A stretch of DNA of 64,000 nt from an uncultured Candidatus Saccharibacteria bacterium. GTDB taxonomy: Bacteria > Patescibacteriota > Doudnabacteria > UBA920. The notes beneath the pieces are model-generated. The model saw only the letters and a list, made by a program, of their open reading frames with translations, was not told where the DNA came from and did no database searches. Position numbers and translations under genes: made by a program. Shown in pieces: positions 37,300 through 50,399 of this stretch; position 1 is the stretch's first letter, and each line of letters starts with the position of its first letter. Location: contig CAYYWQ010000001.1 in NCBI GenBank assembly GCA_964474825.1, forward strand, positions 1,033,606-1,097,605, in the 5' to 3' direction.

Positions 37300-38251
37300 T
37301 TTCCTCCTCTTCCCCGTAAGCGCGGCCTGTTAAGTCCAAGTAGACGTCTTCCAGAGTTGCTGTTTTAACAGTAAAGCCGTAAAAAACAATGTTGTGGGTT
37401 TTTAATAAATTAACAACGGCGGAAATTTTGTCTAAGCTGGTAATTTCCAAAATAACTTTGGGAAAATCAGCGTGGACTTTTTTTATTTCCGGCATTTTAG
37501 AAAAAAGTTTTTCGTCCACCTGGTTGTCCGTAAAAAAAGAAATCTGCGTAGTGTCGGAAAGTCTGTCTATTAGTTTTTTTGGCTCGTCTATTTCCAGTAT
37601 TTGCCCTTGGTCCATAATAGCCACGCGGTGGCAAAGGTATTCCGCCTCTTCCATGTAATGAGTGGTAATAATAATTGTAATGCCGCGGGAATTTATTTTT
37701 TTAATTAACTGCCACATGTCCCTCCGGGCTTTTGGGTCCAGTCCTGTAGTGGGTTCGTCTAAAAACAAAATTTCCGGTTCGTTAACCAGGGAAGTGGCAA
37801 TTGTAAAGCGCTGTTTTTGCCCGCCGGAGAGGTTGGAAAACTCCTCGTGCTCTTTGTCTATTAAATTTACTAAGCCAAGCAGTTCTTGTTTGTCGGCCTT
37901 TAGGTTATAGAAAGAGGCAAAGAGGTCTAAGAGTTCCCATAAACTTAAATGGTGCAGGTATTGGCTGCTTTGAAGCTGAATGCCAATCCGTTTTTTTATT
38001 TCTTCAACCTGTTTTAGGTTATCGAACCCTAAAACTTGCACAGTTCCGGAAGTCTGCGGCTTTAATCCCTCTATAATCTCTAGTGTTGTGGTCTTTCCAG
38101 CTCCATTTGGCCCTAAAATCCCAAATATCTCCCCCTTCTCTACGTTAAAGCTTGTTCCCTTAACTGCCTCAAAAACCCCTTTGCCTTTTGGCAGGGGGTA
38201 AGTTTTTTTAAGATTTGTAACTTCTATAACTTTGTCCATTGTTAAATGCAT
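37292..38251 (-). CDS. ABC transporter ATP-binding protein
   Basis: It has the Walker A GILGPNGAGKTTTLEII, the signature LSGGQKQRFTIA, the Walker B ILFLDEPTTGLD and a C-terminal accessory domain. Confidence 0.85.
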   Translation of the reverse strand: MHLTMDKVIEVTNLKKTYPLPKGKGVFEAVKGTSFNVEKGEIFGILGPNGAGKTTTLEIIEGLKPQTSGTVQVLGFDNLKQVEEIKKRIGIQLQSSQYLHHLSLWELLDLFASFYNLKADKQELLGLVNLIDKEHEEFSNLSGGQKQRFTIATSLVNEPEILFLDEPTTGLDPKARRDMWQLIKKINSRGITIIITTHYMEEAEYLCHRVAIMDQGQILEIDEPKKLIDRLSDTTQISFFTDNQVDEKLFSKMPEIKKVHADFPKVILEITSLDKISAVVNLLKTHNIVFYGFTVKTATLEDVYLDLTGRAYGEEEENE

Positions 38252-38288
38252 TATAGCATTTTGTCTTTTTTATAGGTATAATAATTTT

Positions 38289-40601
38289 ATGAATACAGAA
38301 TTTAATCCCATTGAGAAATATGGGCCAACTACTTTACCGGAGTCAAAATCAGAGCATGAACTGCGGGAATCAAAGGCAGAAGTTTTGGAATTAGGGAAAA
38401 GATTTATTCAAGGACGGGATTGGAAAGCACTGGAAGATTTAGTTAGATCTTTGCCGGACAATGATTTTCTTGTCACTCAAACTACTTTGTTACAGGAGTT
38501 AAATGATGGTTTATTTGATGTTCAACTGAAGCCTGGACCTGCCAATAGATATTTTGAAGAAGGGGACGGTTGGGAAACTTTACGCTGCGCCACAGAAATT
38601 ATAAGGAAAATGGGAAATAATCCCAGCTCATCCAAATATTTGCATAAGGTTATGGAGATGGACAGGATTCCTAAGGTTGTTTTAAAAGAAGGGCAAGCTG
38701 CCATTACTAATGATATAAATGCAGGAGCTGATTTAGATATTGATGTTCGTTGGTTTTATTATAGGGCATTGACAGAGGCTTTTTTAAAATTTCCAGACGA
38801 TCGAGCCCTGCTCGCGGTAAAGCAAATTTTAAATAAGATTGACCAGCAGGTACTTGAAAATACCAGACATTATTACTACCCTGAGGGAAAAGATATAACA
38901 GGGAGTTTTGAAGAAACGCCACAGGAGTTGTTTGACTATCAGTTCAAGGCTGCGGAATCTAATATGCCCAGTGACTTAATTGCAGGCATATCCGCCGGTG
39001 ATATGGCAGTTGGCACTAAGTCTTTTATAATAAAAAAATTAGGGGGAGCCAAACAGCCGGAATCACTTCCTATGTTTTTAGAAGTGATAAAGCTCGAAGG
39101 CTCAGATGCCCCAATATATTTTCATCCTATATTGGAGGCTCTTAGGCAATTGGACCAAAATTTGGTGGCGGACAAGCTCTTAAATTTGGTTAAGAGCGGA
39201 AACCCATTTGAAAAAAGAAGCGCATTATGGCTGCTATATAGGTTGGAAATTGGACAAGTTGGGGTTTCTGAAGAAGGCGTACATTATTTGCATAAAGTTT
39301 ATGACGTGGGAAACTATAATAATCCTAATTATTATGTACAACGCTTAACTTCCGGTGGGCAGGTTGGTATTTTTTCCCAAGAGGGAAAATTTGAGAAATA
39401 TTTTAATTTGGAGGGATTGGGCAGTGAAGAACAGCGCATTAGAGCTAAATTGTTGGACATTACCTACGCTACTTTGTTTGGGCATCACGCTAAGGAGAAG
39501 CCGGAAGAACGCAAACAAAGAACAAAGTTATTAGAGGAGTTTCAGTTAAAATATTTTGAATTTTTACAACACGATTTTTTCAATGATCTTCCAGTAAAGT
39601 TTTCTGATTTAACTTTTCCGGAACAAGGGCAGTTTTTAAAATTTTATTCTGACTCTGAGGAGTCAGAAAGAGCGAGACTGAAAGATTATTGTAAGAAGTT
39701 TGGGCTAACTGGGTTTCGTTCATTAATGTCTTTGGATTATGATGGGGGTGTCGCCGCCAAGCTTTTAGACATGGCCGAAAGTTTGCCTCAGTCACGAATG
39801 CAGATGATTTTAGATAAATATGTGGCAATAGTTTCCGCAGCTGATACCGCGGAAATGGCACTTTGGGAAAACTTACCTCAATCCGCAAATGCTTCTCCAG
39901 ATTTAAAAGAACGGGTAAGAGAATTTATTATGGAAAAAGGTAGTAGATTTTTAAGGCATTTAGGGCTGGACGAATCTGAGGCATTTTCACACAAAGACAC
40001 AATCATGTATTTAAGTGGAATTCGTACAGAAGTAATGATTTATGCCGCTTTATTTAAAGAACTTTCTAAAATTAACAAACTTTCTATAACTGACATTAAA
40101 GACGCTAGGTTTGACATCGTCCCAGCTAAATTACTTTCTGAAGATGATAAAAAACAGATGTTGGAAATTTTTGCAAATAATAGAGACGAGAGCTATCCTT
40201 TAAAGTTGAGAGAAGCGACGTTAAGAAGTTTTGAGCAAACTTTACAAGCAGAAGGGCCGGTTTTTAGAGTGCTAAAGTACAAAGGAAGTATTGTGTCGTT
40301 TTTCCACGCTCAACCACAAGGAGAGGATGCTATTTATGTTGGATCTTTGAATTTGAGTCCTGACGCCCAAGACAGCTCTATTGCAGTTAGTATGGTAGTT
40401 GCGGCTTTGGAACAGGCCGGGACAGAAAAAAATATAACAGCTAAGGTTTGGTCTAAAAATGAAAAACTTTATAAATTTTATAAGCGCTATCTACATTTTC
40501 AAGATGATGGGGTAGAAGAGAATTATGAAGGAACGGGGGAAAATTATTACAAGCTAAAAAAACCAAAGCAGGAAGAATCTACTTTTGCAGTAGCGGCTTA
40601 A
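38289..40601 (+). CDS. Large hypothetical protein
   Basis: A long ORF with coding-like composition. The likely start is MNTEFNPIEK at 38289; the track start at 38232 overlaps the divergent ABC gene. I recognised no motif. Confidence 0.5.
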   Translation: MNTEFNPIEKYGPTTLPESKSEHELRESKAEVLELGKRFIQGRDWKALEDLVRSLPDNDFLVTQTTLLQELNDGLFDVQLKPGPANRYFEEGDGWETLRCATEIIRKMGNNPSSSKYLHKVMEMDRIPKVVLKEGQAAITNDINAGADLDIDVRWFYYRALTEAFLKFPDDRALLAVKQILNKIDQQVLENTRHYYYPEGKDITGSFEETPQELFDYQFKAAESNMPSDLIAGISAGDMAVGTKSFIIKKLGGAKQPESLPMFLEVIKLEGSDAPIYFHPILEALRQLDQNLVADKLLNLVKSGNPFEKRSALWLLYRLEIGQVGVSEEGVHYLHKVYDVGNYNNPNYYVQRLTSGGQVGIFSQEGKFEKYFNLEGLGSEEQRIRAKLLDITYATLFGHHAKEKPEERKQRTKLLEEFQLKYFEFLQHDFFNDLPVKFSDLTFPEQGQFLKFYSDSEESERARLKDYCKKFGLTGFRSLMSLDYDGGVAAKLLDMAESLPQSRMQMILDKYVAIVSAADTAEMALWENLPQSANASPDLKERVREFIMEKGSRFLRHLGLDESEAFSHKDTIMYLSGIRTEVMIYAALFKELSKINKLSITDIKDARFDIVPAKLLSEDDKKQMLEIFANNRDESYPLKLREATLRSFEQTLQAEGPVFRVLKYKGSIVSFFHAQPQGEDAIYVGSLNLSPDAQDSSIAVSMVVAALEQAGTEKNITAKVWSKNEKLYKFYKRYLHFQDDGVEENYEGTGENYYKLKKPKQEESTFAVAA

Positions 40602-41380
40602 ACAGCTTTTGCATTTTGCCACAGTGCTTCAAATACAGTTTTGTGCATTTTGTAAATTGCAGGGTGTTCTATGGTCATACTGACAATTTTTCCGGCTTCC
40701 ATGCTAATGTAAGAAATCTTGCCGTCGTAAATGTACATTATGGTGGAAAAGGCCGCGGGCGCCGGTATAACGCGAACCTGGGTAACGTTGGGGTTAAAAG
40801 TTTTAGCGTGCTGCCGCACAAAAGCGGAGTCCACCATAATAATTTTTTTCTTTATGCCTTTAGTTGTCCGCGCTTCCGTAAAGTTTTTGTTAAGTTCAGG
40901 AAATTGTTTATTTAGCGCCTCGCTGTCTATGTAAGAATAAATTTCCGTAGCTGAAGTTAAAGAATCCTCCACGACCTGTTGTGCTCCGTCCAATCCTTCG
41001 AAAAATTTAATTGTTGGTTTGGTTGCCGCGAGTTGATAAAGACTTCTAAGTCCCGGTAAGGTTTTGCCCAATTCTTCCTCCGCCGTTGTAATGGCGGATT
41101 TTTGTTTAGCTAAAAGAAGTTCCAGGTGCTCTGGATGTTTGGCTATAAATTTGGTGGTGGTTTTTGGCAAGTCTTGTTTTTCTACTAATCCTTTGGCTAC
41201 TAAGCTGTCCAGGTGGTAGTAAGCGTTGCCGCGCTTTAACTTGGTGTGGAATAAAATTGGCTTCATGCTTTGCGGACCCAAGTTTAAAAGCAGCTCGTAG
41301 ATTTGGGCTTCGTTTTTGTTGAGGCCTAGTTTTTCCAGGAGGGGGATATAAGGGGATTGTTGTATTTGATTATTATCCAT
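40598..41380 (-). CDS. TrmB-family transcriptional regulator (N-terminal wHTH)
   Basis: The N-terminus KNEAQIYELLLNLGPQSMKPILFHTKLKRGNAYYHLDSLVAKGLVEK matches the TrmB winged-helix pattern. Confidence 0.55.
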   Translation of the reverse strand: MDNNQIQQSPYIPLLEKLGLNKNEAQIYELLLNLGPQSMKPILFHTKLKRGNAYYHLDSLVAKGLVEKQDLPKTTTKFIAKHPEHLELLLAKQKSAITTAEEELGKTLPGLRSLYQLAATKPTIKFFEGLDGAQQVVEDSLTSATEIYSYIDSEALNKQFPELNKNFTEARTTKGIKKKIIMVDSAFVRQHAKTFNPNVTQVRVIPAPAAFSTIMYIYDGKISYISMEAGKIVSMTIEHPAIYKMHKTVFEALWQNAKAV

Positions 41381-41500
41381 ATACCCTTATTATGCGCCCT
41401 TTTTAGAATTTTGTCAAGTTAAAACTGACATTTTACTATTAATTTAAGCCATTTATTTAAAAGAAATATAGAGTTTATATATTATTACATCAGTATATTA

Positions 41501-41529
41501 TTGACATTTTGTCAAATTTAGACTACAAT
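41501..41529 (+). promoter_or_regulatory. Near-consensus sigma70 promoter (TTGACA-N17-TACAAT) pointing into the GC-rich island
   Basis: TTGACA is at 41501-41506, the spacer is 17 nt, and TACAAT is at 41524-41529. Confidence 0.5.
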
Positions 41530-41536
41530 GCGTAGT

Positions 41537-43240
41537 TAACATAAAAACAGCAAAAAGCACCTTTTACAATATATATGACTTTCTGAGGAGAGAGTCGGCA
41601 ATAGGCGCCGAAAAGCCTGGTAAATTAAGTCTTTTTGTCGCAATAAGCGGCTAATTGGTTATCTCTCCCAAAGAAATAGCTTGTTAGCCGCTTTTTTGGT
41701 AGAAGGGGATTTGGAGAAGAATACACCACATATTTCTTCTTCAAGTCTCTCTCTATAAAGAGGAGAGAGCCTGCGCTTAAAAAGAGCAGGTAAAAAATTC
41801 TTTTAAAACCATTTGTCTTGCTCAAAGGTTGGAGTAAGGATTAGAAACCCTAAAACAACCCCGCTCCATGCTCAGCATGGAGAAAGTAGACTTTAGCTAG
41901 AGTAGGTAAGTTACAGTGTTAAGCGCTTCGGCTTACAGGAAGCCGCGGCCCTGACCGCTTACCTATGGACCTAGCAATGAGTGCACCCTTCATAACCCAA
42001 AAGGTTGTGAAGGGAACAGTCATTGTTATAAGTAGAATATAGAATCTAGAAGATAGAATTTAGGAAATAGGTGCGTGCGGAAATTTTTATCGCCTGTGGT
42101 AAATATTTCTGCCCTCGCTACTACAGGAGTAGTGAGGTAGCACCTTAAAATTTTCAAATAAGATTTTAATTTTTGCTTAAGTTCGTCTTAAGCGTATTAG
42201 ATTTTGTCGGCAGCGTTGAGCAGCAAAGCTATGTCTTTGCTTTTTTAAGCTGCCGACAAGCCATGCATCTTTTTGGCGCATGGCAGCAGAAAAGGAGGCG
42301 GATATCGTGGAATACCCGCCGGGCAAGCAATAAAATTGCCGGGGTACAGCGTGAACCCTATCCCAAATTCGCTCGACAACTTCTGTGGCCTTTGCAGAAG
42401 ATCGTATTGATAAGGCAACCGGCAAGCAATTCTTGCCAAAGGAGGGTGGAAATGAAAACTCCACCTGGAAATAGGGGTAACTGGAAGAGGCCCAAAAAAC
42501 CAGCAACCGGAAACCTAGGGTATTAGTTGTCCCTAAGTGGAAGGTAAAAACCCGTCGCCGACAACTAAATGTGCTGCAGGAGTAAGGTAAGACTAGTAGT
42601 TATATTAGTAGGCTTGGATAAGGGCGTATGATCCTGGACTGAGTTAAAAGTATAATGAAGTGCTTATCTGAAACTGCACACATGGCAAGGAAGAGTCCTC
42701 CCTCCAGGAGGTGAGCGAGCTTGGGATAGTATCTCCGGGCCGCCTGCCTGGAGAAACTGCTCTATACCCCGAGGATCCGATGCTTCATGATTTGGGGTGA
42801 ACTTCCAGACGCCCAGGCACTTTGTTTTAGGAGGTGTGTTATGTTGAAACTTCCGTTTTAGCCCGGTCTCTGGATCCGGGCGAAGCCTGCCGCAAGGTAG
42901 GAAAACCAGCAACCAACCTATAGCAACAGATAGCTATGGGAAGGTTTACCCTAGGCCGTGTCTGTATGTTTTGTTAAGTAGTTTACGGAAAGGCGGATGA
43001 TCTGGAACGTAAACGAAAGGCGAGGCATGGTCGTGTGGTCCCGTGCGGCAACGGGACAAGGAAGAAAGTCTCTCCGCGTCTGTGGAGAGGATGGGCGAGC
43101 TCGGGACACAATTCCGCGGCTCGGCCTGTCCGAGTCCGCGGGAGAATGCCCAGAATCTTTCAGACGCCCGAGCGTTTTTGTTGTAAAAATCAAAACCGCC
43201 CGCGGCGCCGGATGATGCGCCAAGGGCAAAGGAGCTTGTC
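41537..43240 (+). other. About 1.7-kb non-coding, hairpin-dense leader / candidate large structured RNA preceding the Ubl-conjugation operon
   Basis: There is no ORF with credible composition. I saw at least ten perfect 5-10-bp hairpins by eye. Two 26-nt direct repeats lie at 42803-42828 and 43158-43183. G+C rises sharply from about 41830 onward. Confidence 0.3.
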
Positions 43241-44308
43241 ATGGTTGAGGTAAAATGGGGTGCAAATGCGGATCGTCCGTATTGGTTTCCCTTTAGTGAT
43301 CAGATAAAAGAATGGCTCTCTAATAACGAGAGCCTGCCAGACACTTTGTTGTACCTGCGCCCAACGTATAAGGAGGGGCAGCAGGAGCAAGTGGCTGGAC
43401 GTTTGGTTGTTGTGCTGGGTCGTGATGATTGGCCGAGCACAAAAGGGACCCTTGAGGCGGAAGGGAGCTTGAAGATTGACTTCATTCCGCAGGGTAATTT
43501 TCTTCGGATTTGGGGGCTACCAAATTGTCCCGACCGGAGAGACGGCGAGGAGGTGGTGAGGATTCTGAGTCGTCTGTTGCCCGAGGTTGCAAAGACTGAC
43601 CCACAAAAAAAACTTGCAATAATGGCAATGGTCTCTGAGGCCTATGTTAAAGAGTGCTCGAAGAGATTTGAAAAAACCCTTGAAGGAACCCGCAAGGCGA
43701 TCAAAGACGGTAACGCAGCCGTGGCCAAGCTCCAAGTGGAGCTCGTGAAAAAGATTCGCGAGACCCGAGGGGCTGAGCGCAAGCTTGAGCAAATGGAGTC
43801 CTCGCGCGAAGCGCAGACCGAAGGATACGCGCAGGAGTTTAATAAACTCCTGCAGGTCCCTAAAGTCCGTAGGGTGGAGGCAAAGGAGGGCAAAGTGATA
43901 GTTTACACCGACGTTCTTTTTTGTACGGATCCCCGGACGGGGATATGTCACGAGATTGGCGCGTTCAGGATTGAACTAGTTGCGGATATGGGGATCCCGT
44001 ACTGGTTTAACTTAACCCGTTCCGTTGACGGGTACAACAATAGAATGCAGGCACCACATATTTACTCGAACGGGCAGGCCTGTCTGGGTAACGCCGCGGA
44101 AATCTTCCCGGAACTCATAGGTAACTATGAGTTTGCGGCCGCAGCCATGGTGGCTATCCAGTTCGTGGAGTCGGTGAACACCGACGACACGGCTGGAAAA
44201 CACATTGACAAGTGGCCGGTGGCGAAGGAGCAACCGGTCAAAATCGCAACCGCAACAAAGGTGGCAAATTTAGTGCCGCCACAACCGTCTTGGAGGAGCA
44301 ATGGCTGA
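43241..44308 (+). CDS. E2-like (UBC-fold) ubiquitin-conjugating enzyme homolog with a roughly 200-aa N-terminal coiled-coil extension
   Basis: The C-terminal segment IPYWFNLTRSVDGYNNRMQAPHIYSNGQACLGNAAEIFPEL parallels the E2 core YPF.PP...F.T.IyHPNI..nG.ICLdiL, with the catalytic Cys in the xCL position. An SD (aaggag) precedes the ATG. Its stop overlaps the next gene. Confidence 0.5.
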   Translation: MVEVKWGANADRPYWFPFSDQIKEWLSNNESLPDTLLYLRPTYKEGQQEQVAGRLVVVLGRDDWPSTKGTLEAEGSLKIDFIPQGNFLRIWGLPNCPDRRDGEEVVRILSRLLPEVAKTDPQKKLAIMAMVSEAYVKECSKRFEKTLEGTRKAIKDGNAAVAKLQVELVKKIRETRGAERKLEQMESSREAQTEGYAQEFNKLLQVPKVRRVEAKEGKVIVYTDVLFCTDPRTGICHEIGAFRIELVADMGIPYWFNLTRSVDGYNNRMQAPHIYSNGQACLGNAAEIFPELIGNYEFAAAAMVAIQFVESVNTDDTAGKHIDKWPVAKEQPVKIATATKVANLVPPQPSWRSNG

Positions 44309-45035
44309 AAAGTTAAGGCGTGAGTGGGGCGGCGCCAAGAAGTTTGCGCCTCATGAATTTTCCTCGCGAGTAGAACTCGCGGGAGGCTTGCCTCGGGTTC
44401 TCGTGACCCGCGATGCGTACGAAGATATGTACTGCATCGTTGACGCGGTCGACAAAGAGGTAGGTTGGCTTGGCGCTGTCCAGCGTCTCGGAAATGATTT
44501 TCTGATCACGGAGGTTTTCCTCTTTGACCAGGAGACGCACGCGACAACGTGTGAGATCACGCCCGACGGCATGGCGGAGTTCGCCATGCAGCTCATGTCG
44601 TCCCGACCGGACGGCATGGAAGTAGCCAACTCAATCCGCTTCTGGGGGCACAGTCACGTGAATATGGGGACCAGCCCTTCGGGGCAGGACGAGACCCAAT
44701 TGCGTGAGCTGGCGGCTTCGTGTGGTGATTTTTTCGTTCGGGGCATTTTGAATAAGTCCGGACGGATGGAGTGGACCATCGTACTTGCTTCTGTTGGCGT
44801 CGTAATCCGCGACGCCGCGTGGGAGCTTTACGAACCCGCCGCCGATGCCCGCCGCCGACAGCGGTGGGAGGCGGAAATCGCAACTAAAGTCCGGGAAAAG
44901 ACCTACCCGCAACCGACCTTCGGGTCGGAACGTCGGTGGTCATCAACGATTATTCCCGGACCGGTCGCCTCCGCGGTCCCGCTCTCCAAGCGGGCACAGC
45001 GGCGGCTAGAGAAAGCGGGCAAAAATGGCCATTGA
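44301..45035 (+). CDS. JAB/JAMM (MPN+) metalloprotease-family protein, a putative Ubl-processing/deconjugating peptidase
   Basis: It has a complete JAMM motif: E (LITEVF) ... HSHVNMGTSPSGQD, which is HxHx7Sx2D. It overlaps both neighbours, indicating translational coupling. Confidence 0.65.
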   Translation: MAEKLRREWGGAKKFAPHEFSSRVELAGGLPRVLVTRDAYEDMYCIVDAVDKEVGWLGAVQRLGNDFLITEVFLFDQETHATTCEITPDGMAEFAMQLMSSRPDGMEVANSIRFWGHSHVNMGTSPSGQDETQLRELAASCGDFFVRGILNKSGRMEWTIVLASVGVVIRDAAWELYEPAADARRRQRWEAEIATKVREKTYPQPTFGSERRWSSTIIPGPVASAVPLSKRAQRRLEKAGKNGH

Positions 45036-45732
45036 TCCGCTTCGGCATCTAAGCGTCTTTTCGCCGCATGCCTTTGGGCAGCGGCGGGTAGACGTAATTG
45101 GCTGCGGGGCCACAGGGTCCCGTATTGTGCTTTCTTTGGCGAAGCTCGGCGTGGAGAACATTCACGTGTGGGACTTCGACGTCGTCGAAGAGCACAACAT
45201 TCCGAACCAAGCGTTCTGGCAGGAAATGCACGTCGTGCACGATTCTGCCAAACCGAAGCTGGCGAAGGTCTCGGCCATGGCCGAGATCGTCGAGATCGCC
45301 ACGGGGACCAAAATCACCGTCCATCAGGAGAAGGTGGACGGCACCCAAAGCTTGGGTGAAGTAGTTTTTCTTCTCACCGACACCATGTTTTCGAGAAAGG
45401 AGATTTGGGAAGGAGCCTTGAAGTTCAAGCTCCGGACCGAACTCTTAATTGAGACCCGCATGGGTGCGGACTCGGGCCGGGTGTATAGCCTGGACCCGAA
45501 TAAGCTCGGCCAAATCAAAGCATACGAGGAGACTCTGTGTTCTGACGAAGAGGCCGAGGTTAGCGCTTGCGGCGCAAGTGTGTCGGTGGGGTCAACCGCG
45601 GAAGTGATTTCCGGACTCGCGGTCTGGCAAATGATTCGATGGTTTTCCATTGAGCAGGGAGGCGACGATGAGCTCGACAACGAGATCATTTTTGGCCTCC
45701 GCCCAATGCTGACCATCAGCAGGAAGTTTTGA
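45025..45732 (+). CDS. ThiF/MoeB-type E1-like activating enzyme
   Basis: It has the Rossmann/ATP motif VDVIGCGATGSRIVLSLAKLGVENIHVWDFDVVEEHNIPNQ, with Gly-rich GxGxxG and acidic DxD, and a downstream Cys-containing block ACGASVSVGSTAEVISGLAVW, which is the E1 catalytic-Cys region. Confidence 0.7.
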   Translation: MAIDPLRHLSVFSPHAFGQRRVDVIGCGATGSRIVLSLAKLGVENIHVWDFDVVEEHNIPNQAFWQEMHVVHDSAKPKLAKVSAMAEIVEIATGTKITVHQEKVDGTQSLGEVVFLLTDTMFSRKEIWEGALKFKLRTELLIETRMGADSGRVYSLDPNKLGQIKAYEETLCSDEEAEVSACGASVSVGSTAEVISGLAVWQMIRWFSIEQGGDDELDNEIIFGLRPMLTISRKF

Positions 45733-45733
45733 T

Positions 45734-46051
45734 ATGGGCTGGCTGGCGGGCCGTAACGAGATAATTCAACTTCGTCTCCAACCACCAAAGCCAACGGCCT
45801 ATGTTAATTTTGGTTCAGGTATTGAGTTCACTGCCGACTTCATTGTTGGTATGACACTTCGCAACCTGATCCAGTTTTTGCAGCAGAACTGTAGCTATCG
45901 TTCTATTCACGGCGATGAAATCCCGTGGTTGCATGACTTCCTGCGAACCGGCGACCTTAAGAATTTCCCGGCGGATTTGGACTATGTTATCCAGCCGGGT
46001 GACAAAATTGTTCTGGACTTAACGAAGTTGTTGAGTCCGGTAAGTAAGTAA
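45734..46051 (+). CDS. Small beta-grasp (ubiquitin-like/ThiS-like) protein without a terminal Gly-Gly
   Basis: It has the C-terminal beta-grasp-like DYVIQPGDKIVLDL pattern. Its start is 1 nt after the E1 stop. It ends ...LLSPVSK, with no GG. Confidence 0.4.
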   Translation: MGWLAGRNEIIQLRLQPPKPTAYVNFGSGIEFTADFIVGMTLRNLIQFLQQNCSYRSIHGDEIPWLHDFLRTGDLKNFPADLDYVIQPGDKIVLDLTKLLSPVSK

Positions 46052-46183
46052 ATGTAGTATAGAGGCCGGCATTGCCGCCCGTCGAATGTAGACGTTAAAA
46101 AATATGGGTCCCAAAGGGATTAAATTTAAAACCCATCCGCAGTTTGTAGAGCATTGGCAAACAGCGAAGACAGGAGTAAAACA

Positions 46184-46966
46184 ATGCGGAGTTTCATTAA
46201 CGTCAGAATCGGCCGGCTCCCCGGTCGGATTTCGGAAATTGTGCTTAATGGCGACCGCACGGTCGCTACCGCGTTGATGACCGCCGGCCTGGACAGCGCT
46301 GGCTACGATATCCGGGTGCAGGGTGCACCCGCGAGCATGACAACCGGACTCAACGAGGGGGACATTGTCCTCCTCGTGAAGAAGATCAAGGGGAACGGCG
46401 GGATTGAGGGCGCAACCTTCGTTCACGTCGGCCGCGTCCCCGGACCCGGTCTTGTCCAGTTTGCACTGGATGAGCCCACGGTCTTCATGGCTTTGTCTGC
46501 CGCTGGTCTCAATCTGGGGCCGGATGAGGTGGTTTACCGCAACGACCAGCTTTCTTCCATCGGGGAACCGGTGGAAGACGGCGACAAGATCGTCGTCCGG
46601 CATCCGATGCCGGCGATGGTCGCGGCTTCGCCGGAATTGCCGTCCGGCTTGCACCAGACTGCGCCGGTAGTTTCTGCCACGTTCGATTTCTCGGCCGTGG
46701 TCGGCACCGACCCGGCCCAGCTCTGCTCCAGCGCGGAACGGCTGACCCGCGAAGCGGAGGAGCTCGAGGCGGGAGCTCGCGCCGCGCTCGCCAGCGCGGC
46801 CGAGAAGAAGGTTGCGGCCTCGGCCCATTGGGCCAAAGCCGCGGCTATCGAGACCGCCAACGAGGCGTTGGCAAATGCCAGCGCCCAGCTCGAAACCCTT
46901 GGGGTTATTCGCCCCAAGGGCGAAGGACGGTGGACTGATATCCGCCGCCTCTTCGGCCTCTCGTAG
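46184..46966 (+). CDS. Tandem beta-grasp (multi-ubiquitin-like) protein with an internal KGNGG and a C-terminal Ala-rich coiled coil
   Basis: Module 1 is INVRIGRLPGRISEIVLNGDRTVATALMTAGL...EGDIVLLVKKIKGNGG, with a diglycine at the module end. Module 2 is ...GPDEVVYRNDQLSSIGEPVEDGDKIVVRHP. The SD (aggag) favours the ATG at 46184 over the track start at 46154. Confidence 0.5.
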   Translation: MRSFINVRIGRLPGRISEIVLNGDRTVATALMTAGLDSAGYDIRVQGAPASMTTGLNEGDIVLLVKKIKGNGGIEGATFVHVGRVPGPGLVQFALDEPTVFMALSAAGLNLGPDEVVYRNDQLSSIGEPVEDGDKIVVRHPMPAMVAASPELPSGLHQTAPVVSATFDFSAVVGTDPAQLCSSAERLTREAEELEAGARAALASAAEKKVAASAHWAKAAAIETANEALANASAQLETLGVIRPKGEGRWTDIRRLFGLS

Positions 46967-47376
46967 TAGACGAGGTGCGCGAAATTTTGTCACCGTCTTA
47001 GCAACAGATGGCGAGACAAGCAGGGGCAGACCTGCAAACATCAAATTAATAAAAAGGAAAATAAAAAAAGGTAAAAAAATAAATCTTCCCGCAAGGGTTG
47101 CCTGAAACCTTAAAGCACCACAGGCGTAAAAGCACGGGTACACTGATCGTAATGTCAACGAGTTTAATAAAATAGGTCTCTGCCACAAGGCGGAGGCCAT
47201 CGAGTCAAGAAGTAAATGGCAGGGTGATGCCCACCTGCCAGCCACGAAGTTGTGGCAAACAAAACGGGACAATGCACCAAGATTGGGGAGAGGTAGACTG
47301 CACACCTACCTTTCCTCTTTCCAATTTAGCGCACAAAATTTTTGTGAGCTGGATTGGGAGGTGAAGTATTAAAAAA

Positions 47377-47622
47377 TTACCAGAACTTCTTTGCCAGTTC
47401 TGCCAGCGCAAGCTGGAGGGCTGGGAAGATTACCGGCAGACGCACGAATGCGTCTGCGGAGCTAAGTACTTTGTCGTCTCGCATGACGACTTGTGTATGG
47501 CTCCGAGTTTGGCCCACGATGCCTTTGGTATTAAGGAAGAAGGCGCGGTCGAAGTCAGGGTCATCGAGAAGTTCGATGTCCTGACCGATGAAGGCCAGGT
47601 TCCGGAAGATGGGGATTGGCAA
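47377..47622 (-). CDS. Small hypothetical protein on the island
   Basis: An 81-aa ORF with an SD (aggaaggg) 9 nt upstream of the ATG on the - strand. It has no recognisable motif. Confidence 0.25.
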   Translation of the reverse strand: MPIPIFRNLAFIGQDIELLDDPDFDRAFFLNTKGIVGQTRSHTQVVMRDDKVLSSADAFVRLPVIFPALQLALAELAKKFW

Positions 47623-47699
47623 GACATGGTCTTTGCCCTTCCTAAAAAATAAAAAGCCCGGTTGGTGGACCGGTTAAATAAAACCGCTAAGCACTCAAA

Positions 47700-47752
47700 T
47701 TTGGGACGAGTGAGTTAACAGTCATTCGTCCCAAATTTATTTATTATTTATC
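47700..47752 (+). terminator. Intrinsic terminator (ttgggacga-N14-tcgtcccaa + T-rich tail)
   Basis: A 9-bp perfect stem at about 47703-47736, followed by tttatttattatttatc. It probably ends the Ubl operon transcript. Confidence 0.4.
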
Positions 47753-47918
47753 TTCAATCACCTGCCGGAATGACGGCTTAAGAGTAGTTGGGGAGCTGTA
47801 TGGTTTAGCCAATTAATTTTGGTACAAATCTCTCTCCTCAAGCGGCTCCTTAATGCTTTTAAACTTTTCATTTCGGCAGTTGGGTGGAGGAAAAATAAAA
47901 AAAACAAAGGTGAACAAA

Positions 47919-48517: not shown

Positions 48518-48565
48518 GGCCGAAAGCACGCACTTTCGCTTTCGGCCACTTCTTTCAGATTACGA
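48518..48565 (+). repeat. Copy 1 of a roughly 48-nt direct repeat (GC hairpin ggccgaaagc/gctttcggcc + ctttcagattacga), followed by a TTGACA promoter-like site at 48657
   Basis: It is more than 90 percent identical to 50052-50099. Both copies are followed about 80-100 nt later by ctgaaag and a TTGACA -35-like hexamer. Confidence 0.5.
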
Positions 48566-48789
48566 CTCATGTCGCGGTCTGAAAGTTGTCGAGGTTATAG
48601 TTTGGAACATCTGCTTTGTGAGCGCCCTTGCTTGGTAGATGTTCCGCATTTTGGCCTTGACAATAACAGTAGTTTGTGATAAATTAAGTAGTTAAAACTT
48701 AATATTTCTCAAGGGCGCATTTTGCGCCCTTTTTTTGTTTGCCTTTTTCTTTTAGCCCGCAGTGATGGCGGGTTGGAAGAAGGAGGAAT

Positions 48790-49142: not shown

Positions 49143-50027
49143 TTGAGAAAAGAAGGAGAGGTTTTGACTGTGCCGCGAAAAAAAGGGCCGCAGGCTAAAC
49201 AGAAACAGCGGGAGGCCGACGAACGGCGCAAAAAAGGTACGGCCAAACCGGCTAATGAGTCGGCAAGGGCGTATCTTAACAACAAGGAAATGGCGATGCC
49301 GCTCGACAAGCTGCATCAATATCTTCGTGACAAGAAGGGGTTTAATGTTTCCAGGGCGACCGCCTGGCGCGCCAAAAGGACGGGGTATTTTTATCCGCAA
49401 CACGTGCCGACGTTTGGCGCTAAGCGGATTAAATTGACCCTGGATGAGAGGTCTGCTTCGGTGGATTTTTTGGTCAAGCGGTTTGGCTTTACCCGTCAAA
49501 CCGCCCGGGAAGCCAAGCGGCGTGGGTGGTTTACGGTCGACGTGAACACACGCGGCCGTATTAGGATTCCGGCAGACCGTTATGTTCCGCCGGCGGAGCT
49601 CAAACCTGAGCTGGTGGTGGAAAGGGTAGACCTCACTCAGGAGGAGAGGCAGGCTTTTCCGGATTTTTTGGCAAAGCGGTTCGGGATTTCCCGTCGTACC
49701 GCCGCGGTAGCCAAGGAGCGCGGCTGGTTCAAAGTTTTGCCCGCAATGAGGGGGAAGCTGCGAATTCCCAATGACCGCAAAATGCCGAGCATTTTCCCGG
49801 GGAAAAAGGTGGAGCTGACCACCTCGGAAATGCAGACCAGCCTGGATTTCTTGGTTAATCGGTTCGGCATTCACCGCACTACTGCCGCGGTAGCCAAGGA
49901 GCGGGGGTTCTTTATTGTCATGTCGCAACATATGGGCAAGACAAGGATTCCCGTGAATCGAGTGGTGGGCATGGATGAGACGCGGTATTTCCGTCGCGGC
50001 CGGCCCCCAAAGCCTGGAAAAAAATAA
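49143..50027 (+). CDS. Protein with four tandem excisionase/AlpA-type HTH (HTH_17-like) repeats
   Basis: There are four repeats of about 35 aa: FLVKRFGFTRQTAREAKRRGWFTV...GRIRIP, FLAKRFGISRRTAAVAKERGWFKV...GKLRIP, FLVNRFGIHRTTAAVAKERGFFIV...GKTRIP, and a diverged first copy YLRDKKGFNVSRATAWRAKRTGYF. The real start may be the GTG at about 49170, after an SD (aaggagagg). Confidence 0.5.
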   Translation: MRKEGEVLTVPRKKGPQAKQKQREADERRKKGTAKPANESARAYLNNKEMAMPLDKLHQYLRDKKGFNVSRATAWRAKRTGYFYPQHVPTFGAKRIKLTLDERSASVDFLVKRFGFTRQTAREAKRRGWFTVDVNTRGRIRIPADRYVPPAELKPELVVERVDLTQEERQAFPDFLAKRFGISRRTAAVAKERGWFKVLPAMRGKLRIPNDRKMPSIFPGKKVELTTSEMQTSLDFLVNRFGIHRTTAAVAKERGFFIVMSQHMGKTRIPVNRVVGMDETRYFRRGRPPKPGKK

Positions 50028-50051: not shown

Positions 50052-50099
50052 GGCCGAGAGCACGCACTTTCGCTTTCGGCCATTTCTTTTAGAATACGA
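50052..50099 (+). repeat. Copy 2 of the roughly 48-nt direct repeat, followed by a TTGACA-N16-TATATT promoter (50132-50159)
   Basis: The match to 48518-48565 is seen directly in the sequence. The promoter hexamers are near consensus. Confidence 0.5.
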
Positions 50100-50399
50100 T
50101 AAGTATCGTGACCTGAAAGAAGTTCTAGTACTTGACAAACCCCCAATTCGTGCTATATTAGGTATACACATTGCACGATTTGGGGATGATATGTGCGCTT
50201 CCGATTCACCCGCTTTAGGCGTAAATATCGGATAAAATAATAAAACCTTAGACCGAAAACATTAAGTTTTCGGTAGGGTTAGTTTGTCGCCAGTTTTTAT
50301 TTTAATGGTAAAAAATCTGATAAACTCTTAATTTTAATAATACCTTTTATTTAAGCCATAAAAGGTATATTTTTAGTGTCTCTGCAACTTTCTTTTGTT

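What the first reader, a model, noticed from the sequence alone, without database searches (positions are those of the whole stretch)
43241..46966. Complete ubiquitin-like conjugation cassette (E2-like, JAB/JAMM, ThiF-type E1, two beta-grasp proteins) in a translationally coupled operon
Seen in sequence: five + strand genes have overlapping or abutting stops and starts (44301/44308, 45025/45035, 45732/45734). Gene 2 has a full JAMM motif (E...HSHVNMGTSPSGQD). Gene 3 has the ThiF/E1 Rossmann motif (VDVIGCGATGSRIVLSLAKLGVENIHVWDFDVVEEHNIPNQ) and a Cys block (ACGASVSVGSTAEVISGL). Gene 1 ends in a UBC-like core (PYWF...APHIYSNGQACLG, compare HPN..G.ICL). Gene 5 has two beta-grasp modules, the first ending KKIKGNGG. 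Gene 4 has a beta-grasp-like C-terminus. From established knowledge, this gene set defines the bacterial E1-E2-JAB-Ubl operons (the multiubiquitin class of Iyer, Burroughs and Aravind; the Bil and Bub anti-phage systems that conjugate a Ubl to phage structural proteins). Unusual features here are the roughly 200-aa coiled-coil N-terminal extension on the E2, the internal rather than C-terminal diglycine (suggesting JAB-dependent maturation of a tandem Ubl precursor), the extra Ala-rich coiled-coil tail, and the host context, which is an apparently reduced genome where defence islands are rarely described.
Basis: partly seen in the sequence, partly recalled or inferred. Interest (0 to 1): 0.9.

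Follow-up and report, generated by a model that had tools for sequence, protein, structure and literature searches.

The report
Phage-type ubiquitin-like conjugation operon
A five-gene operon in a small bacterial genome encodes a full ubiquitin-like protein-tagging machine (activating enzyme, conjugating enzyme, trimming protease and a tag made as a precursor) of a type that current catalogues do not recognise, that is common in large uncultured phages, and whose tag ends in Gly-Asn rather than the usual Gly-Gly.

Summary
Five co-directional genes (43241-46966) overlap or abut as described. g3 is a minimal ThiF-type E1 with an invariant crossover-loop Cys. g2 has an exact JAMM motif. The g1 C-terminal domain models as a UBC/E2 fold with the classical motif spacing. 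g5 has two beta-grasp modules plus a helical tail. g4 could not be confirmed as beta-grasp.

This is a Ubl-conjugation cassette, but it is not a Bil, Bub, CBASS or multiubiquitin member. Only the E1 is recognised by PADLOC, Pfam or NCBIfam. The Asn lies where SAMP2, ThiS and MoaD have their terminal Gly. Relatives include polyubiquitin-like tandem arrays.

The same four-gene module occurs in most of the 80 viral loci examined, out of 377 IMG/VR contigs that encode this E1. Many are 160-210 kb, and there the module sits among replication genes. In the window it forms a GC-rich block (cassette genes GC 0.47-0.64; the 2-kb windows from 42 to 50 kb read 0.50-0.56, against about 0.36-0.47 in nearly all other windows). 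It lies downstream of a TrmB-like regulator and a ~1.7 kb structured leader.

Verdict: new variant of a known kind. Biological role is untested.

The parts
40598..41380 (-). TrmB-like HTH regulator, divergently transcribed. It is a candidate regulator of the operon. It is a conserved neighbour, but its GC content is host-like.
   Evidence: Pfam TrmB E 6.5e-12. Homologues lie next to the cassette in L001, L007, L009, L012/47, L013 and L027/28. GC is 0.42, against 0.47-0.64 for the cassette genes.
41501..41529 (+). Sigma-70-like promoter (TTGACA-17-TACAAT) that would drive the leader and operon. A repeated ATTTTGTCAA element at 41408 and 41506 is a candidate operator.
   Evidence: The consensus scan gives 11 of 12 matches. 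The repeat is D4. The region is conserved in L007 and L012/47. Function is inferred only.
41536..43240 (+). A gene-free, apparently structured leader or ncRNA region of about 1.7 kb upstream of g1.
   Evidence: No long ORF. Conserved blocks alternate with indels against L007. Gaps of about 1-3.3 kb between the TrmB gene and the g1 ORF occur in all TrmB-linked loci. No Rfam match.
42667..42840 (+). RNA motif R1, copy 1 (a multi-hairpin element of about 130-170 nt).
   Evidence: cmsearch 103.5 bits.
43041..43195 (+). RNA motif R1, copy 2, 46 nt upstream of the g1 start codon.
   Evidence: cmsearch 133.3 bits. Copies lie upstream of g1 in L007 (two), L010 and L001 (E 4e-6). The motif is absent from 70 viral loci.
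43241..44308 (+). g1: E2-like conjugating enzyme. It has an N-terminal alpha/beta domain (1-116), a long helix (121-187) plus a further helix (189-204), and a C-terminal UBC-fold domain (about 205-330) with P272-H273...G278...C281.
44301..45035 (+). g2: JAB/JAMM metallopeptidase (E53, H117-S-H119-x7-S127-x2-D130).
   Evidence: The motif is conserved in about 105 of 112 homologues. Prok-JAB is hit by 10 of 25 family members, best E 2.7e-4. The window protein scores E 0.039. The only PDB profile hit is the JAMM deubiquitinase BRCC36, E 0.28, aligned on the motif.
45025..45732 (+). g3: minimal ThiF/MoeB-type E1 adenylating enzyme with a single domain, no Cys-domain insertion and no Zn CxxC pairs. 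Its invariant Cys182 lies on the crossover loop.
   Evidence: Pfam ThiF 62.9 bits, above the 28.1 cut-off. PDB profile hits: ThiF 1e-10, MccB 2e-10, Uba1 3e-9, Cap2 2e-7, BubCD 3e-6. C182 aligns with ThiF Cys184. Active-site residues are conserved in about 97 of 98 homologues.
45734..46051 (+). g4: a 105-aa accessory protein of unknown fold. It is not a conserved part of the module.
   Evidence: Homologues occur only in L001 and L014/15. No family hit. The word-index search found only itself. hhalign against the Ubl module gives 8%.
46184..46966 (+). g5: Ubl precursor. Module 1 (res 1-71) ends in the invariant LLVKKIKG70-N71. A variable linker (GG) follows, then a degenerate module 2 (about 78-139, no KGN), a disordered linker and a long helix (177-239).

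Best explanation
The operon encodes a working ubiquitin-like protein-conjugation system of a previously uncatalogued, mainly phage-borne type.

Proposed sequence of events (all steps are inferred from sequence and models; none was shown biochemically):
1. Transcription starts at the promoter at 41501-41529 and runs through a ~1.7 kb structured leader. It is probably controlled by the divergent TrmB-like regulator.
2. g5 is made as a precursor. The JAMM peptidase g2 cuts at the invariant K-I-K-G-N junction. This releases a ~71-aa SAMP2/ThiS-like Ubl and leaves behind the degenerate second beta-grasp plus helical tail.
3. The minimal, presumably homodimeric, ThiF-type E1 g3 adenylates the Ubl C-terminus and takes it onto Cys182 of its crossover loop.
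4. The Ubl passes to Cys281 of the UBC-fold domain of g1. The variable N-terminal domain and long helix of g1 choose the target, so g1 acts as an E2 with a built-in substrate receptor.
5. g2 can also reverse the conjugation.

The terminal residue that is activated is more likely the conserved Asn, which is in the Gly76-equivalent position, than the preceding Gly.

The biological role is most likely virus-host or mobile-element conflict. In phages the module sits with early or replication genes. The chromosomal copy here is a compositionally foreign block under dedicated regulation.
For: E1: Pfam ThiF is above its cut-off. All adenylation residues and Cys182 are conserved in about 97 of 98 homologues. 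C182 aligns with ThiF Cys184.

JAB: the JAMM motif is exact and conserved in about 105 of 112. Prok-JAB is the only recurrent Pfam family.

Ubl: both modules have a beta-grasp fold. Homologues pass the ThiS cut-off. The profile hits SAMP2.

KGN is invariant inside the tail-bearing precursors. The model has a flexible hinge at N71-G-G. JAB pre-processing of a Ubl is established for BilC/BilA (PMC10557695).

Asn as terminal residue: G70 aligns with the penultimate residue in 7 of 7 solved SAMP2, ThiS, MoaD and TtuB chains. None of the 150 family members ends at KG, while 56 end exactly at GN.

Co-occurrence: all four genes lie together in most of 46 metagenomic and 80 viral loci, in several permuted orders.

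Target-selector idea: g1 N-termini are variable, and 5-6 tandem g1 paralogues occur in L031 and L041.

Against: A C-terminal Asn is unprecedented for a conjugated Ubl. By analogy with E. aridi BilA (Gly97-Ala98), the Asn could simply be a cap that the JAB removes. The E1 lacks a mobile Cys domain, so thioester formation on Cys182 is an inference from ThiF/MoeB-type enzymes. Archaeal SAMP systems work with no E2 at all. No target or E3 is identifiable, and the role in the host is unknown. The roles of g4 and of the module 2 plus helix remnant of g5 are unexplained.
Confidence: 0.75

Rival explanations
1. This is a MccB-like chemistry rather than a thioester relay. The E1 adenylates the conserved C-terminal Asn. 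The Asn side chain then cyclises to a succinimide, as in microcin C7 maturation. That would give either a C-terminally nucleotidylated Ubl or an activated imide that reacts directly with a nucleophile. The UBC-fold protein would act as an adaptor rather than a thioester carrier.
For: The Ubl family ends in a conserved Asn at the terminal-Gly position. MccB, which adenylates the C-terminal Asn of MccA, is the second-best solved relative of the E1 profile (E 2.3e-10, against ThiF 1.2e-10). The E1 is a minimal single domain with no Cys-domain insertion. The MccB mechanism itself is from established knowledge and PMC4010828 (abstract).
Against: The E1 Cys182 and the E2 His273/Cys281 are almost invariant, which points to a thioester relay. 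The MccB match covers only the generic Rossmann region (profile positions 11-88). The MccB peptide-clamp domain is absent. About 9% of family members have Ala and about 5% have Gly instead of Asn, and neither can form a succinimide.
Confidence: 0.12
2. This is a sulfur-carrier or biosynthetic ThiS/ThiF-type pair. The Ubl would be thiocarboxylated for a cofactor, a thionucleoside or a natural product. The JAB would only unmask the C-terminus, as for CysO/Mec+ or QbsE/QbsD. No protein conjugation would occur.
For: The best sequence relatives are ThiF for the E1 and ThiS, MoaD, SAMP2 and TtuB for the Ubl. C182 is the ThiF Cys184 equivalent. Deposited phage homologues are annotated 'thiamine biosynthesis protein ThiF'.
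Against: No rhodanese domain, cysteine desulfurase, ThiG/ThiH, MoaE or other biosynthetic partner occurs in the window or in the conserved module. A UBC-fold protein with conserved His/Cys is an obligate partner in about 75 of 80 viral loci. Polyubiquitin-like arrays and multiple E2 paralogues make no sense for sulfur transfer. The terminus is G-N, not G-G. The phage context is replication genes.
Confidence: 0.05
3. Role rival A: in this bacterium the cassette is a domesticated anti-phage defence system that works like Bil. It would tag an invading phage's structural or replication proteins, and it would be kept silent by the TrmB-like repressor and the leader RNA until infection.
For: Its architecture and gene order (E2-JAB-E1) match Bil, whose anti-phage action is proven (PMC10557695; 10.1101/2023.09.04.556158). 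The chromosomal copies, and only they, carry a regulator plus a long leader with the R1 motif. The block is compositionally foreign, as defence cargo often is. E2 paralogue expansions suggest an arms race.
Against: No known defence genes flank it in the window. PADLOC finds no system. Among the loci examined, the module is found mostly on viral contigs. No phage-challenge data exist.
Confidence: 0.35
4. Role rival B: the cassette is phage or mobile-element cargo that acts for the element. It would modify host proteins for takeover or counter-defence, or modify the element's own proteins. The window copy would be a remnant or a captured copy, with no integrase left.
For: 377 IMG/VR contigs encode this E1 type. 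About 75 of the 80 loci examined carry the E2-like, JAB and E1 genes together, and most of these also carry the Ubl. The module lies among dUTPase, helicase, DNA polymerase, SSB and nuclease genes of genuine phages. L002 is flanked by a serine recombinase, methyltransferases and a faint (sub-threshold) terminase-like Pfam mark. The window block is GC-rich relative to the host.
Against: The window block has no integrase, terminase or structural genes. In several genomes the cassette occupies the same position next to the TrmB and GNAT genes. That pattern looks like stable chromosomal residence rather than recent prophage decay.
Confidence: 0.35

Closest known systems
Bil (bacterial ISG15-like) operons, Type I and II: BilA Ubl, BilB E2, BilC JAB, BilD E1
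   Different: BilD is a large E1 with inactive and active adenylation domains, a helical Cys-domain and a Zn site. g3 is a 235-aa single domain. BilB has a C-E-H-H motif, whereas g1 has the classical His-before-Cys arrangement plus a large N-terminal extension. BilA ends in Gly (Type I), or in Gly plus non-conserved residues (Type II). Here the terminus is a conserved G-N. In Bil the Ubl gene comes first; here it comes last. PADLOC models do not recognise g1, g2 or g5. Bil is chromosomal defence cargo, whereas this family is found largely on viral contigs.
Archaeal sampylation (SAMP1/2, E1 UbaA, JAMM1) and Thermus TtuB/TtuC
   Different: SAMP systems have no E2, end in Gly-Gly, double as sulfur carriers and are housekeeping genes. 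Here a UBC-fold protein is an obligate partner, the terminus is G-N, and the genes form a mobile module.
Eukaryotic polyubiquitin genes
   Same: Head-to-tail Ubl repeats are encoded as one ORF, often with one or a few extra residues after the last repeat, and need a deubiquitinase to release monomers (L001, L002 and the 2-4-module family members). The tail LLVKKIKGN aligns without gaps with ubiquitin's LHLVLRLRGG (my knowledge of the ubiquitin sequence).
   Different: The fold subfamily is ThiS/SAMP2-like rather than ubiquitin proper. The terminal residue is Asn. The window's own g5 has only one intact repeat, fused to a degenerate repeat and a helix.
Type II CBASS Cap2 (E2-E1 fusion) with Cap3 (JAB), and Bub (6E/DUF6527) operons
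   Different: There is no CD-NTase, no E1-E2 or JAB-E1 fusion and no DUF6527 protease. A separate Ubl is present. All matches are confined to the generic adenylation fold.
MccB/MccA (microcin C7) and other ThiF-like RiPP enzymes
   Same: A ThiF-like adenylating enzyme acts on a ribosomal product with an obligatory C-terminal Asn. MccB is the second-best solved match of the E1 profile.
   Different: The substrate here is a folded beta-grasp protein, not a heptapeptide. There is no peptide-clamp domain and no export or immunity genes. Conserved E1 and E2 cysteines are present.
PRTRC cassettes and Iyer-Burroughs-Aravind 2006 operon type '6d' (Ubl, JAB, E1-like, E2-like)
   Same: The four domain types are the same and occur on mobile DNA. 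E2-JAB-E1 adjacency is shared. There is a weak NCBIfam PRTRC_ThiF hit (24 bits).
   Different: The hit is far below the cut-off (144.75). The 6d E2s lack the His upstream of the Cys (PMC1779556), whereas g1 has it. There is no ParB and there are no PRTRC proteins.

Membership tests
ThiF/MoeB/E1 adenylating enzymes (Pfam PF00899) | Profile match above the curated cut-off; Rossmann GxGxxG, Arg finger and Asp/Lys catalytic residues | tested here: met
   62.9 bits against a 28.1 cut-off. R7, G26/G28/G31, D50, K81 and D119 are invariant.
E1 enzymes that form a thioester | Catalytic Cys on or inserted into the crossover loop | tested here: met
   C182 is invariant in 96 of 98 homologues and aligns with ThiF Cys184 on the crossover loop. 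Thioester formation itself was not tested.
JAB/JAMM (MPN+) metallopeptidases | E...H-x-H-x7-S-x2-D zinc motif; profile match | tested here: met
   The motif is exact and conserved in about 105 of 112 homologues. The Prok-JAB profile match is sub-threshold for the window protein (E 0.039) but is hit by 10 of 25 relatives, best E 2.7e-4. The fold was not modelled.
UBC/E2 superfamily | UBC fold (helix, four-stranded meander, Cys loop, C-terminal helices) with a catalytic Cys preceded by an HPN-like motif | tested here: met
Pfam Prok-E2_A-E / UQ_con families | Profile match | tested here: not met
   None of the 43 family members hits any E2 model at E <= 0.05.
ThiS/MoaD/SAMP beta-grasp Ubls | Beta-grasp fold; profile match; flexible C-terminal tail ending in a small residue that enters the E1 site | tested here: met
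ThiS/MoaD/SAMP/ubiquitin-type modifiers | C-terminal Gly-Gly (terminal Gly activated) | tested here: not met
   The terminus is G-N in about 85% of 150 relatives, G-A in about 9% and G-G in about 5%. None ends at the first Gly. N aligns with the terminal Gly of 7 solved Ubls.
Bil (BilABCD) | PADLOC/HMM recognition of BilA-D; BilD with IAD+AAD+CYS domain and Zn site; BilB CEHH motif; BilA conserved terminal Gly | tested here: not met
   PADLOC gives no hit for g1, g2 or g5. g3 is 235 aa, a single domain with no CxxC pairs. g1 has His upstream of Cys; C+6 Glu is present but the two His are absent. The terminus is G-N. Whether PADLOC v2 holds Bil models under another name was not verified.
Bub (6E/DUF6527) | Ubl-E2 or E2-E1 or JAB-E1 fusions plus the DUF6527 serine protease BubE | tested here: not met
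   The genes are separate and there is no DUF6527 hit. The architecture is as described in PMC11601603.
Multiubiquitin (Pfam PF14452) | Profile match | tested here: not met
   There is no hit for g5. One homologue scores 18.1 bits, below the 24.5 cut-off.
Type II CBASS (Cap2/Cap3) | CD-NTase plus an E2-E1 fusion plus JAB | tested here: not met
   Only the adenylation domain of g3 matches Cap2 models. There is no CD-NTase in the window.
PRTRC system | NCBIfam PRTRC_ThiF/A/B/C above cut-off, with ParB | tested here: not met
   PRTRC_ThiF scores 24.3 bits against a 144.75 cut-off. No other PRTRC models are hit.

The most novel reading that the evidence does not exclude
This is a large, undescribed family of phage-encoded 'ubiquitination' systems. 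Phages, and some small-genome bacteria that captured the module, would use it to tag proteins of their opponent. Its modifier is activated at a C-terminal asparagine rather than glycine. This may involve MccB-like adenylate-to-succinimide chemistry feeding an E1-E2 relay, with polyubiquitin-like precursor genes and E2s that carry their own interchangeable target-recognition domains.
Probability: 0.25. Interest if true: 0.9.

Novelty: new variant of a known kind. Interest (0 to 1): 0.7.

Why it matters
Bacterial E1-E2-DUB-Ubl systems (Bil, Bub, CBASS Cap2/3) were shown only recently to carry out real ubiquitination in anti-phage defence. This cassette represents a further, sizeable family that the annotation libraries tested here miss. 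The evidence for its size:
- At least 84 E2-like proteins.
- 402 Ubl cluster representatives.
- 377 viral contigs with the E1.

The family differs from the known systems in four ways. Among the loci examined it is carried mainly by phages, which points to ubiquitin-like tagging used by the virus as well as against it. It has the most ubiquitin-like genetic feature seen so far in prokaryotes, polyubiquitin-style tandem genes with capped ends. It uses a minimal E1 together with a classical-motif E2. Its modifier ends in Gly-Asn, which challenges the rule that conjugated Ubls need a terminal Gly.

It also places such a system in a bacterium with a small genome (a 1.21 Mb contig), under an unusual regulator plus long structured leader. 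All components are small and soluble-looking, so each inference can be tested directly in vitro.

Tried and rejected
- PADLOC, NCBIfam and PHROGs scans of g1, g2, g4 and g5 gave nothing usable.
- The PDB sequence-profile search with the g1 family gave only coiled-coil noise.
- Rfam on the whole window and on the leader found no known family. The mir-77 and IhtA hits are far below their gathering scores and were rejected as chance.
- No tRNA or tmRNA marks an integration site.
- tblastn of g1 and of the Ubl against 50,697 deposited phage genomes found no match.
- The AFDB Foldseek library was unavailable.
- g4: the word-index homologue search found only itself. hhalign against the Ubl family was negative. 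Its fold therefore stays open.
- The genome-collection scan with g1 returned only a distant Cytophagia MAG and not the source genome. Cluster look-ups gave no names. The organism is therefore not identified. 'CPR/Patescibacteria' rests only on the names of two homologues and the small contig.
- I considered that the GC-rich block is a prophage. I rejected this for the window because no integrase, terminase or structural genes are present.
- I considered that the 41.4-43.2 kb gap hides genes. This is unlikely, given the indel pattern against L007 and the absence of called genes in four assemblies.

Full report
**1. The observation**

- g1: 43241-44308
- g2: 44301-45035
- g3: 45025-45732
- g4: 45734-46051
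- g5: ends at 46966

g1/g2 overlap by 8 nt, g2/g3 overlap by 11 nt, and g3/g4 are 1 nt apart. g4 and g5 are separated by 132 nt. The likelier g5 start is ATG 46184, which gives 260 aa. It matches the NCBI-called protein and has an AGGAG site 8 nt upstream.

The cassette genes are GC-rich (GC 0.47-0.64, GC3 0.55-0.76; host-like neighbours 0.38-0.46). The 2-kb windows from 42 to 50 kb read 0.50-0.56. Nearly all other windows in the 64 kb read about 0.36-0.47, with one exception of 0.504 at 18-20 kb. The contig of origin is 1,211,450 bp. rpoB and rpoC lie just downstream.

**2. What each gene is**

*g3 (E1).* It passes Pfam ThiF (62.9 bits against a 28.1 cut-off). An alignment of 18 homologues, and then 98 unique homologues, shows invariant R7, G26/G28/G31, D50, D52, K81, D119 and C182. 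The family profile finds ThiF (1.2e-10), MccB (2.3e-10), PaaA, Uba1, UBA5, Cap2, MoeB and BubCD among solved structures. In the ThiF alignment, C182 pairs with ThiF Cys184 on the crossover loop. The protein is a bare adenylation domain of 235 aa. It has no inserted Cys domain and no CxxC zinc pairs.

*g2 (JAB).* It carries E53 and H117-S-H119-x7-S127-x2-D130, which is the exact JAMM signature. The signature is conserved in about 105 of 112 unique homologues. Profile evidence is weak but consistent. Prok-JAB scores E 0.039 for the window protein. It is the only Pfam family that recurs across relatives, in 10 of 25 with a best E of 2.7e-4. The only PDB profile hit is the JAMM deubiquitinase BRCC36, aligned on the motif (E 0.28).

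*g1 (E2-like).* No family was found in Pfam, PADLOC, NCBIfam or PHROGs. It belongs to a family of at least 84 unannotated metagenomic proteins. With a 43-sequence alignment, AlphaFold gives a confident model (pLDDT 89). The model has an alpha/beta domain (1-116), a long helix (121-187) and a further helix (189-204). A C-terminal domain follows, with a four-stranded meander, a loop bearing H273 and C281, and three helices.

Across 126 unique homologues, P272, H273, G278 and C281 are conserved in 117, 115, 109 and 111 sequences. The motif [A/H]-P-H-[IV]-x3-G-x-[AP]-C has the same Pro-to-Cys (9) and Gly-to-Cys (3) spacing as the classical HPN-[IV]-x3-G-x-[IV]-C. That comparison rests on established knowledge of UBC enzymes. 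I therefore accept a UBC-fold, probably catalytic, E2-like domain. The caveat is that this rests on a model and a motif.

*g5 (Ubl precursor).* An exhaustive search finds 402 cluster representatives. These are built from 1, 2, 3 or 4 copies of a ~70-aa module. Homologues 62-71% identical to the window's module 1 pass the Pfam ThiS cut-off (24.5-51 bits against 22.5). The module profile hits solved SAMP2 (8e-5, 1e-4), with weaker matches to MoaD, ThiS and TtuB. Module 2 of g5 matches the module family at hhalign 94%.

*g4.* It remains unassigned. Homologues exist in only three loci. There are no family hits, hhalign against the Ubl family gives 8%, and it could not be modelled. It is an accessory gene, not part of the conserved module.

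**3. The Ubl terminus**

The family shows that the conserved element is K-[IV]-K-G-N. Of the 150 best relatives:

| C-terminal form | Count |
|---|---|
| Ends exactly at GN | 56 |
| GN plus a long tail | 23 |
| GA in place of GN (any form) | 14 |
| GG in place of GN (any form) | 7 |
| Ends at the first Gly (KG) | 0 |

In tandem arrays the modules are joined at GN-x. L001 has three near-identical modules joined ...KKIKGN|ADY. L002 has repeats joined KKIKGN-GGPGY.

In the 20-sequence alignment used for modelling, LLVKKIKGN is invariant, while the next residues vary among G, S, T, A, C and Y. In all seven alignments to solved SAMP2, ThiS, MoaD and TtuB chains, the profile's Gly70 pairs with the penultimate residue. 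Asn71 therefore occupies the position of the activated terminal Gly.

Two readings remain. In the first, Asn is the mature terminus. I favour this, at roughly 60:40, for two reasons: the residue is conserved while what follows it is not, and no gene encodes a form ending at Gly. In the second, Asn is a one-residue cap removed by the JAB. The precedent is E. aridi BilA Gly97-Ala98 (PMC10557695). In Type II BilA, however, the residues after the Gly are not conserved (same source).

**4. The module is conserved and mostly viral**

The E2-like, JAB, E1 and Ubl genes lie together in most of 46 metagenomic loci. A scan of IMG/VR with the E1 alignment found 377 viral contigs that encode relatives. 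In the 80 best loci, about 75 hold E2-like, JAB and E1 genes, and about 70 also hold a KGN-type Ubl. The orders seen are g1-g2-g3-ubl, ubl-g3-g2-g1, ubl-g1-g2-g3 and g2-g3-g1. Many of these contigs are 160-212 kb.

The nearest neighbours in those loci are dUTPase, helicases, family A DNA polymerase, SSB, dNMP kinase and nucleases. That is the replication and nucleotide-metabolism part of genuine phage genomes, not the tail cluster.

Deposited phage genomes hold no g1 or Ubl relative. FpV4-like Flavobacterium psychrophilum phages carry a ThiF at 30% identity. It is flanked by a protein with an HSH-x7-S-x2-D motif and by a protein whose N-terminal module ends ...KQVKSGG before a long tail. I read this as a very distant analogue. 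My HMMs recognise only its E1.

Some loci carry 5-6 tandem g1 paralogues with different N-terminal regions (L031 and L041). Others carry g1 proteins of about 1300 aa (L075, L076, L079 and L082).

**5. The chromosomal version has extra features**

Upstream of g1 lies a 1.86-kb stretch with no long ORF. A near-consensus promoter (TTGACA-17-TACAAT, 41501-41529) faces the operon. A second promoter faces the divergent TrmB-like gene. A repeated ATTTTGTCAA element overlaps both promoters.

The closest relative, L007, conserves the entire stretch as blocks separated by indels. A ~130-nt motif occurs twice in the window (42667-42840 and 43041-43195), twice in L007, and once each in L010 and L001. It is always just 5' of g1. 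Its consensus fold is 86% paired, with 7 pairs changed on both sides against 3.6 +/- 1.2 in shuffles. That is modest support from only five copies. The motif matches nothing in Rfam and is absent from 70 viral loci.

The TrmB-like gene and the preceding 789-aa protein also accompany the cassette in L001, L007, L009, L012/47, L013 and L027/28. The 789-aa protein has a C-terminal GNAT domain (24.2 bits against a 20.7 cut-off). In the loci compared, the cassette genes are generally richer in G+C than these neighbours. The contrast is clearest in L013 (0.49-0.52 against 0.29-0.34) and weakest in L027 (0.46-0.51 against 0.39-0.45). I cannot explain this combination of conserved position and foreign composition.

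**6. Mechanism**

The best-supported reading is a JAB-matured, E1-to-E2 thioester relay that conjugates a SAMP2-like Ubl. The E2 carries its own target-recognition region. None of these steps has been shown biochemically.

Short-form g1 proteins (about 335-360 aa, as in the window) appear to go with tail-bearing Ubl precursors. Long-form g1 proteins (430-620 aa) appear to go with plain Ubls. This rests on loci L007, L010 and L012 against L001, L013 and L018. It also rests on matching contig lengths. The pattern suggests that the g5 remnant (module 2 plus helix) and the g1 N-terminus are functionally linked. This is inference only.

**7. Comparison with known systems**

The system works like Bil and shares its E2-JAB-E1 order, but it fails Bil's defining features:
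- E1 architecture (single domain, against BilD's IAD, AAD, Cys domain and Zn site).
- E2 motif (classical His-before-Cys, against BilB's CEHH).
- Terminal Gly of the Ubl.
- HMM recognition.

These points rest. It also fails the tests for Bub, CBASS type II, PRTRC and Pfam Multi_ubiq. Its Ubl and E1 are closest to the archaeal SAMP/UbaA type, which has no E2.

Full-text searches, and the 2006 Iyer et al. survey and the 2021 jumbo-phage survey, turned up no description of a phage-borne E2-JAB-E1-Ubl(KGN) module. The search is limited to open-access text, so prior description cannot be excluded.

**8. Verdict**

This is a new variant of a known kind of system. It has several unusual features: a Gly-Asn terminus, polyubiquitin-like genes, a minimal E1 paired with a classical-motif E2, carriage mainly by phages among the loci examined, and a dedicated regulator and leader in the chromosomal form. 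The biological role is open. Interest: 0.7.

Noticed in passing
window 41381-43240 (R1 motif copies at 42667-42840 and 43041-43195): A gene-free, apparently structured leader or ncRNA of about 1.7 kb lies between a TrmB-like gene and g1. It contains a repeated multi-hairpin motif of about 130 nt, closed by a GGAAGA/UCUUYC stem. The motif also lies upstream of g1 in L007 (two copies), L010 and L001. It has no Rfam match and is absent from the viral versions of the module.
   Followed up: partly
window 38232-41380; L001, L007, L009, L012/47, L013, L027/28: A 789-aa protein with a C-terminal GNAT domain and a divergent TrmB-like regulator accompany the cassette in several distinct genomes. Their GC content (0.29-0.48) is generally lower than that of the adjacent cassette genes (0.46-0.66). 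The contrast is strong in L013 and weak in L027. Conserved position combined with foreign composition is unexplained.
   Followed up: partly
window 41389-41529: Divergent near-consensus sigma-70 promoters are present (TTGACA-17-TACAAT on the + strand, TTGACA-17-CATAAT on the - strand). Each overlaps a copy of ATTTTGTCAA(G/A)TT(A/T)A(A/G)ACT, which is a candidate operator for the TrmB-like protein.
   Followed up: no
L031 2-9826; L041 2-8426: Five to six tandem paralogues of the E2-like gene have different N-terminal regions, which suggests diversification of target recognition.
   Followed up: no
L075, L076, L079, L082 (viral): These loci have the gene order JAB-E1, followed by a giant protein of about 1300 aa that carries the E2-like domain. 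No separate Ubl was detected.
   Followed up: no
L135 (Flavobacterium phage Fpv3, NC_031904.1 record 62846-67948): Cultured FpV4-like phages have gp55 (a Ubl-like N-terminus ending KQVKSGG plus an acidic tail), gp54 (unknown), gp53 (JAMM motif) and gp52 ('ThiF', 30% identical to g3). They lie next to primase, UDG and exonuclease genes. This is a possible tractable distant analogue, currently annotated as thiamine biosynthesis.
   Followed up: partly
(matching contig lengths); L007, L010, L012 against L001, L013, L018: Short E2-like proteins (about 335-360 aa) co-occur with Ubl precursors that carry a degenerate second beta-grasp plus a helical tail. Long E2-like proteins (430-620 aa) co-occur with plain one- to three-module Ubls.
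   Followed up: partly
L002 12839-14460: The Ubl array is split into three ORFs with identical repeats (KKIKGN-GGPGY junctions). This is probably a longer polyubiquitin-like gene broken by assembly or frameshift errors in the repeats.
   Followed up: no
window 48518-48585 and 50052-50119: There are two copies (82% identical) of a 68-nt element made of two hairpins (GGCCGAAAG...CTTTCGGCC and CTTTCAGA...TCTGAAAG). They lie after the 193-aa ORF and after the HTH-repeat ORF of the GC-rich block.
   Followed up: no
window 49164-50027: A 287-aa protein is built of three diverged repeats of about 60-65 aa. Each contains an HTH-like segment (DNA repeats at 49437, 49635 and 49818, with sub-threshold HTH Pfam hits).
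   Followed up: no
window 41434-41452 and 50341-50359: A 19-nt direct repeat (16 of 19 identical; TACYWTTWATTTAAGCCAT) brackets the GC-rich block, which runs from the leader to just before rpoB. It could be an insertion scar or a chance match in AT-rich spacers.
   Followed up: no
window 46967-47850: A further ~0.9 kb stretch without a convincing gene follows g5. It ends with a perfect-looking hairpin (47697-47738) and a T-rich tract. A short segment (about 47278-47364) is conserved in L007.
   Followed up: no
L004 6117-7217 (viral, minus strand): A TnpB/IS605 OrfB-like gene sits between the two copies of the Ubl module on a 188-kb viral contig. Cas12f1-like TNB and OrfB_IS605 hits also occur among the viral neighbours.
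   Followed up: no
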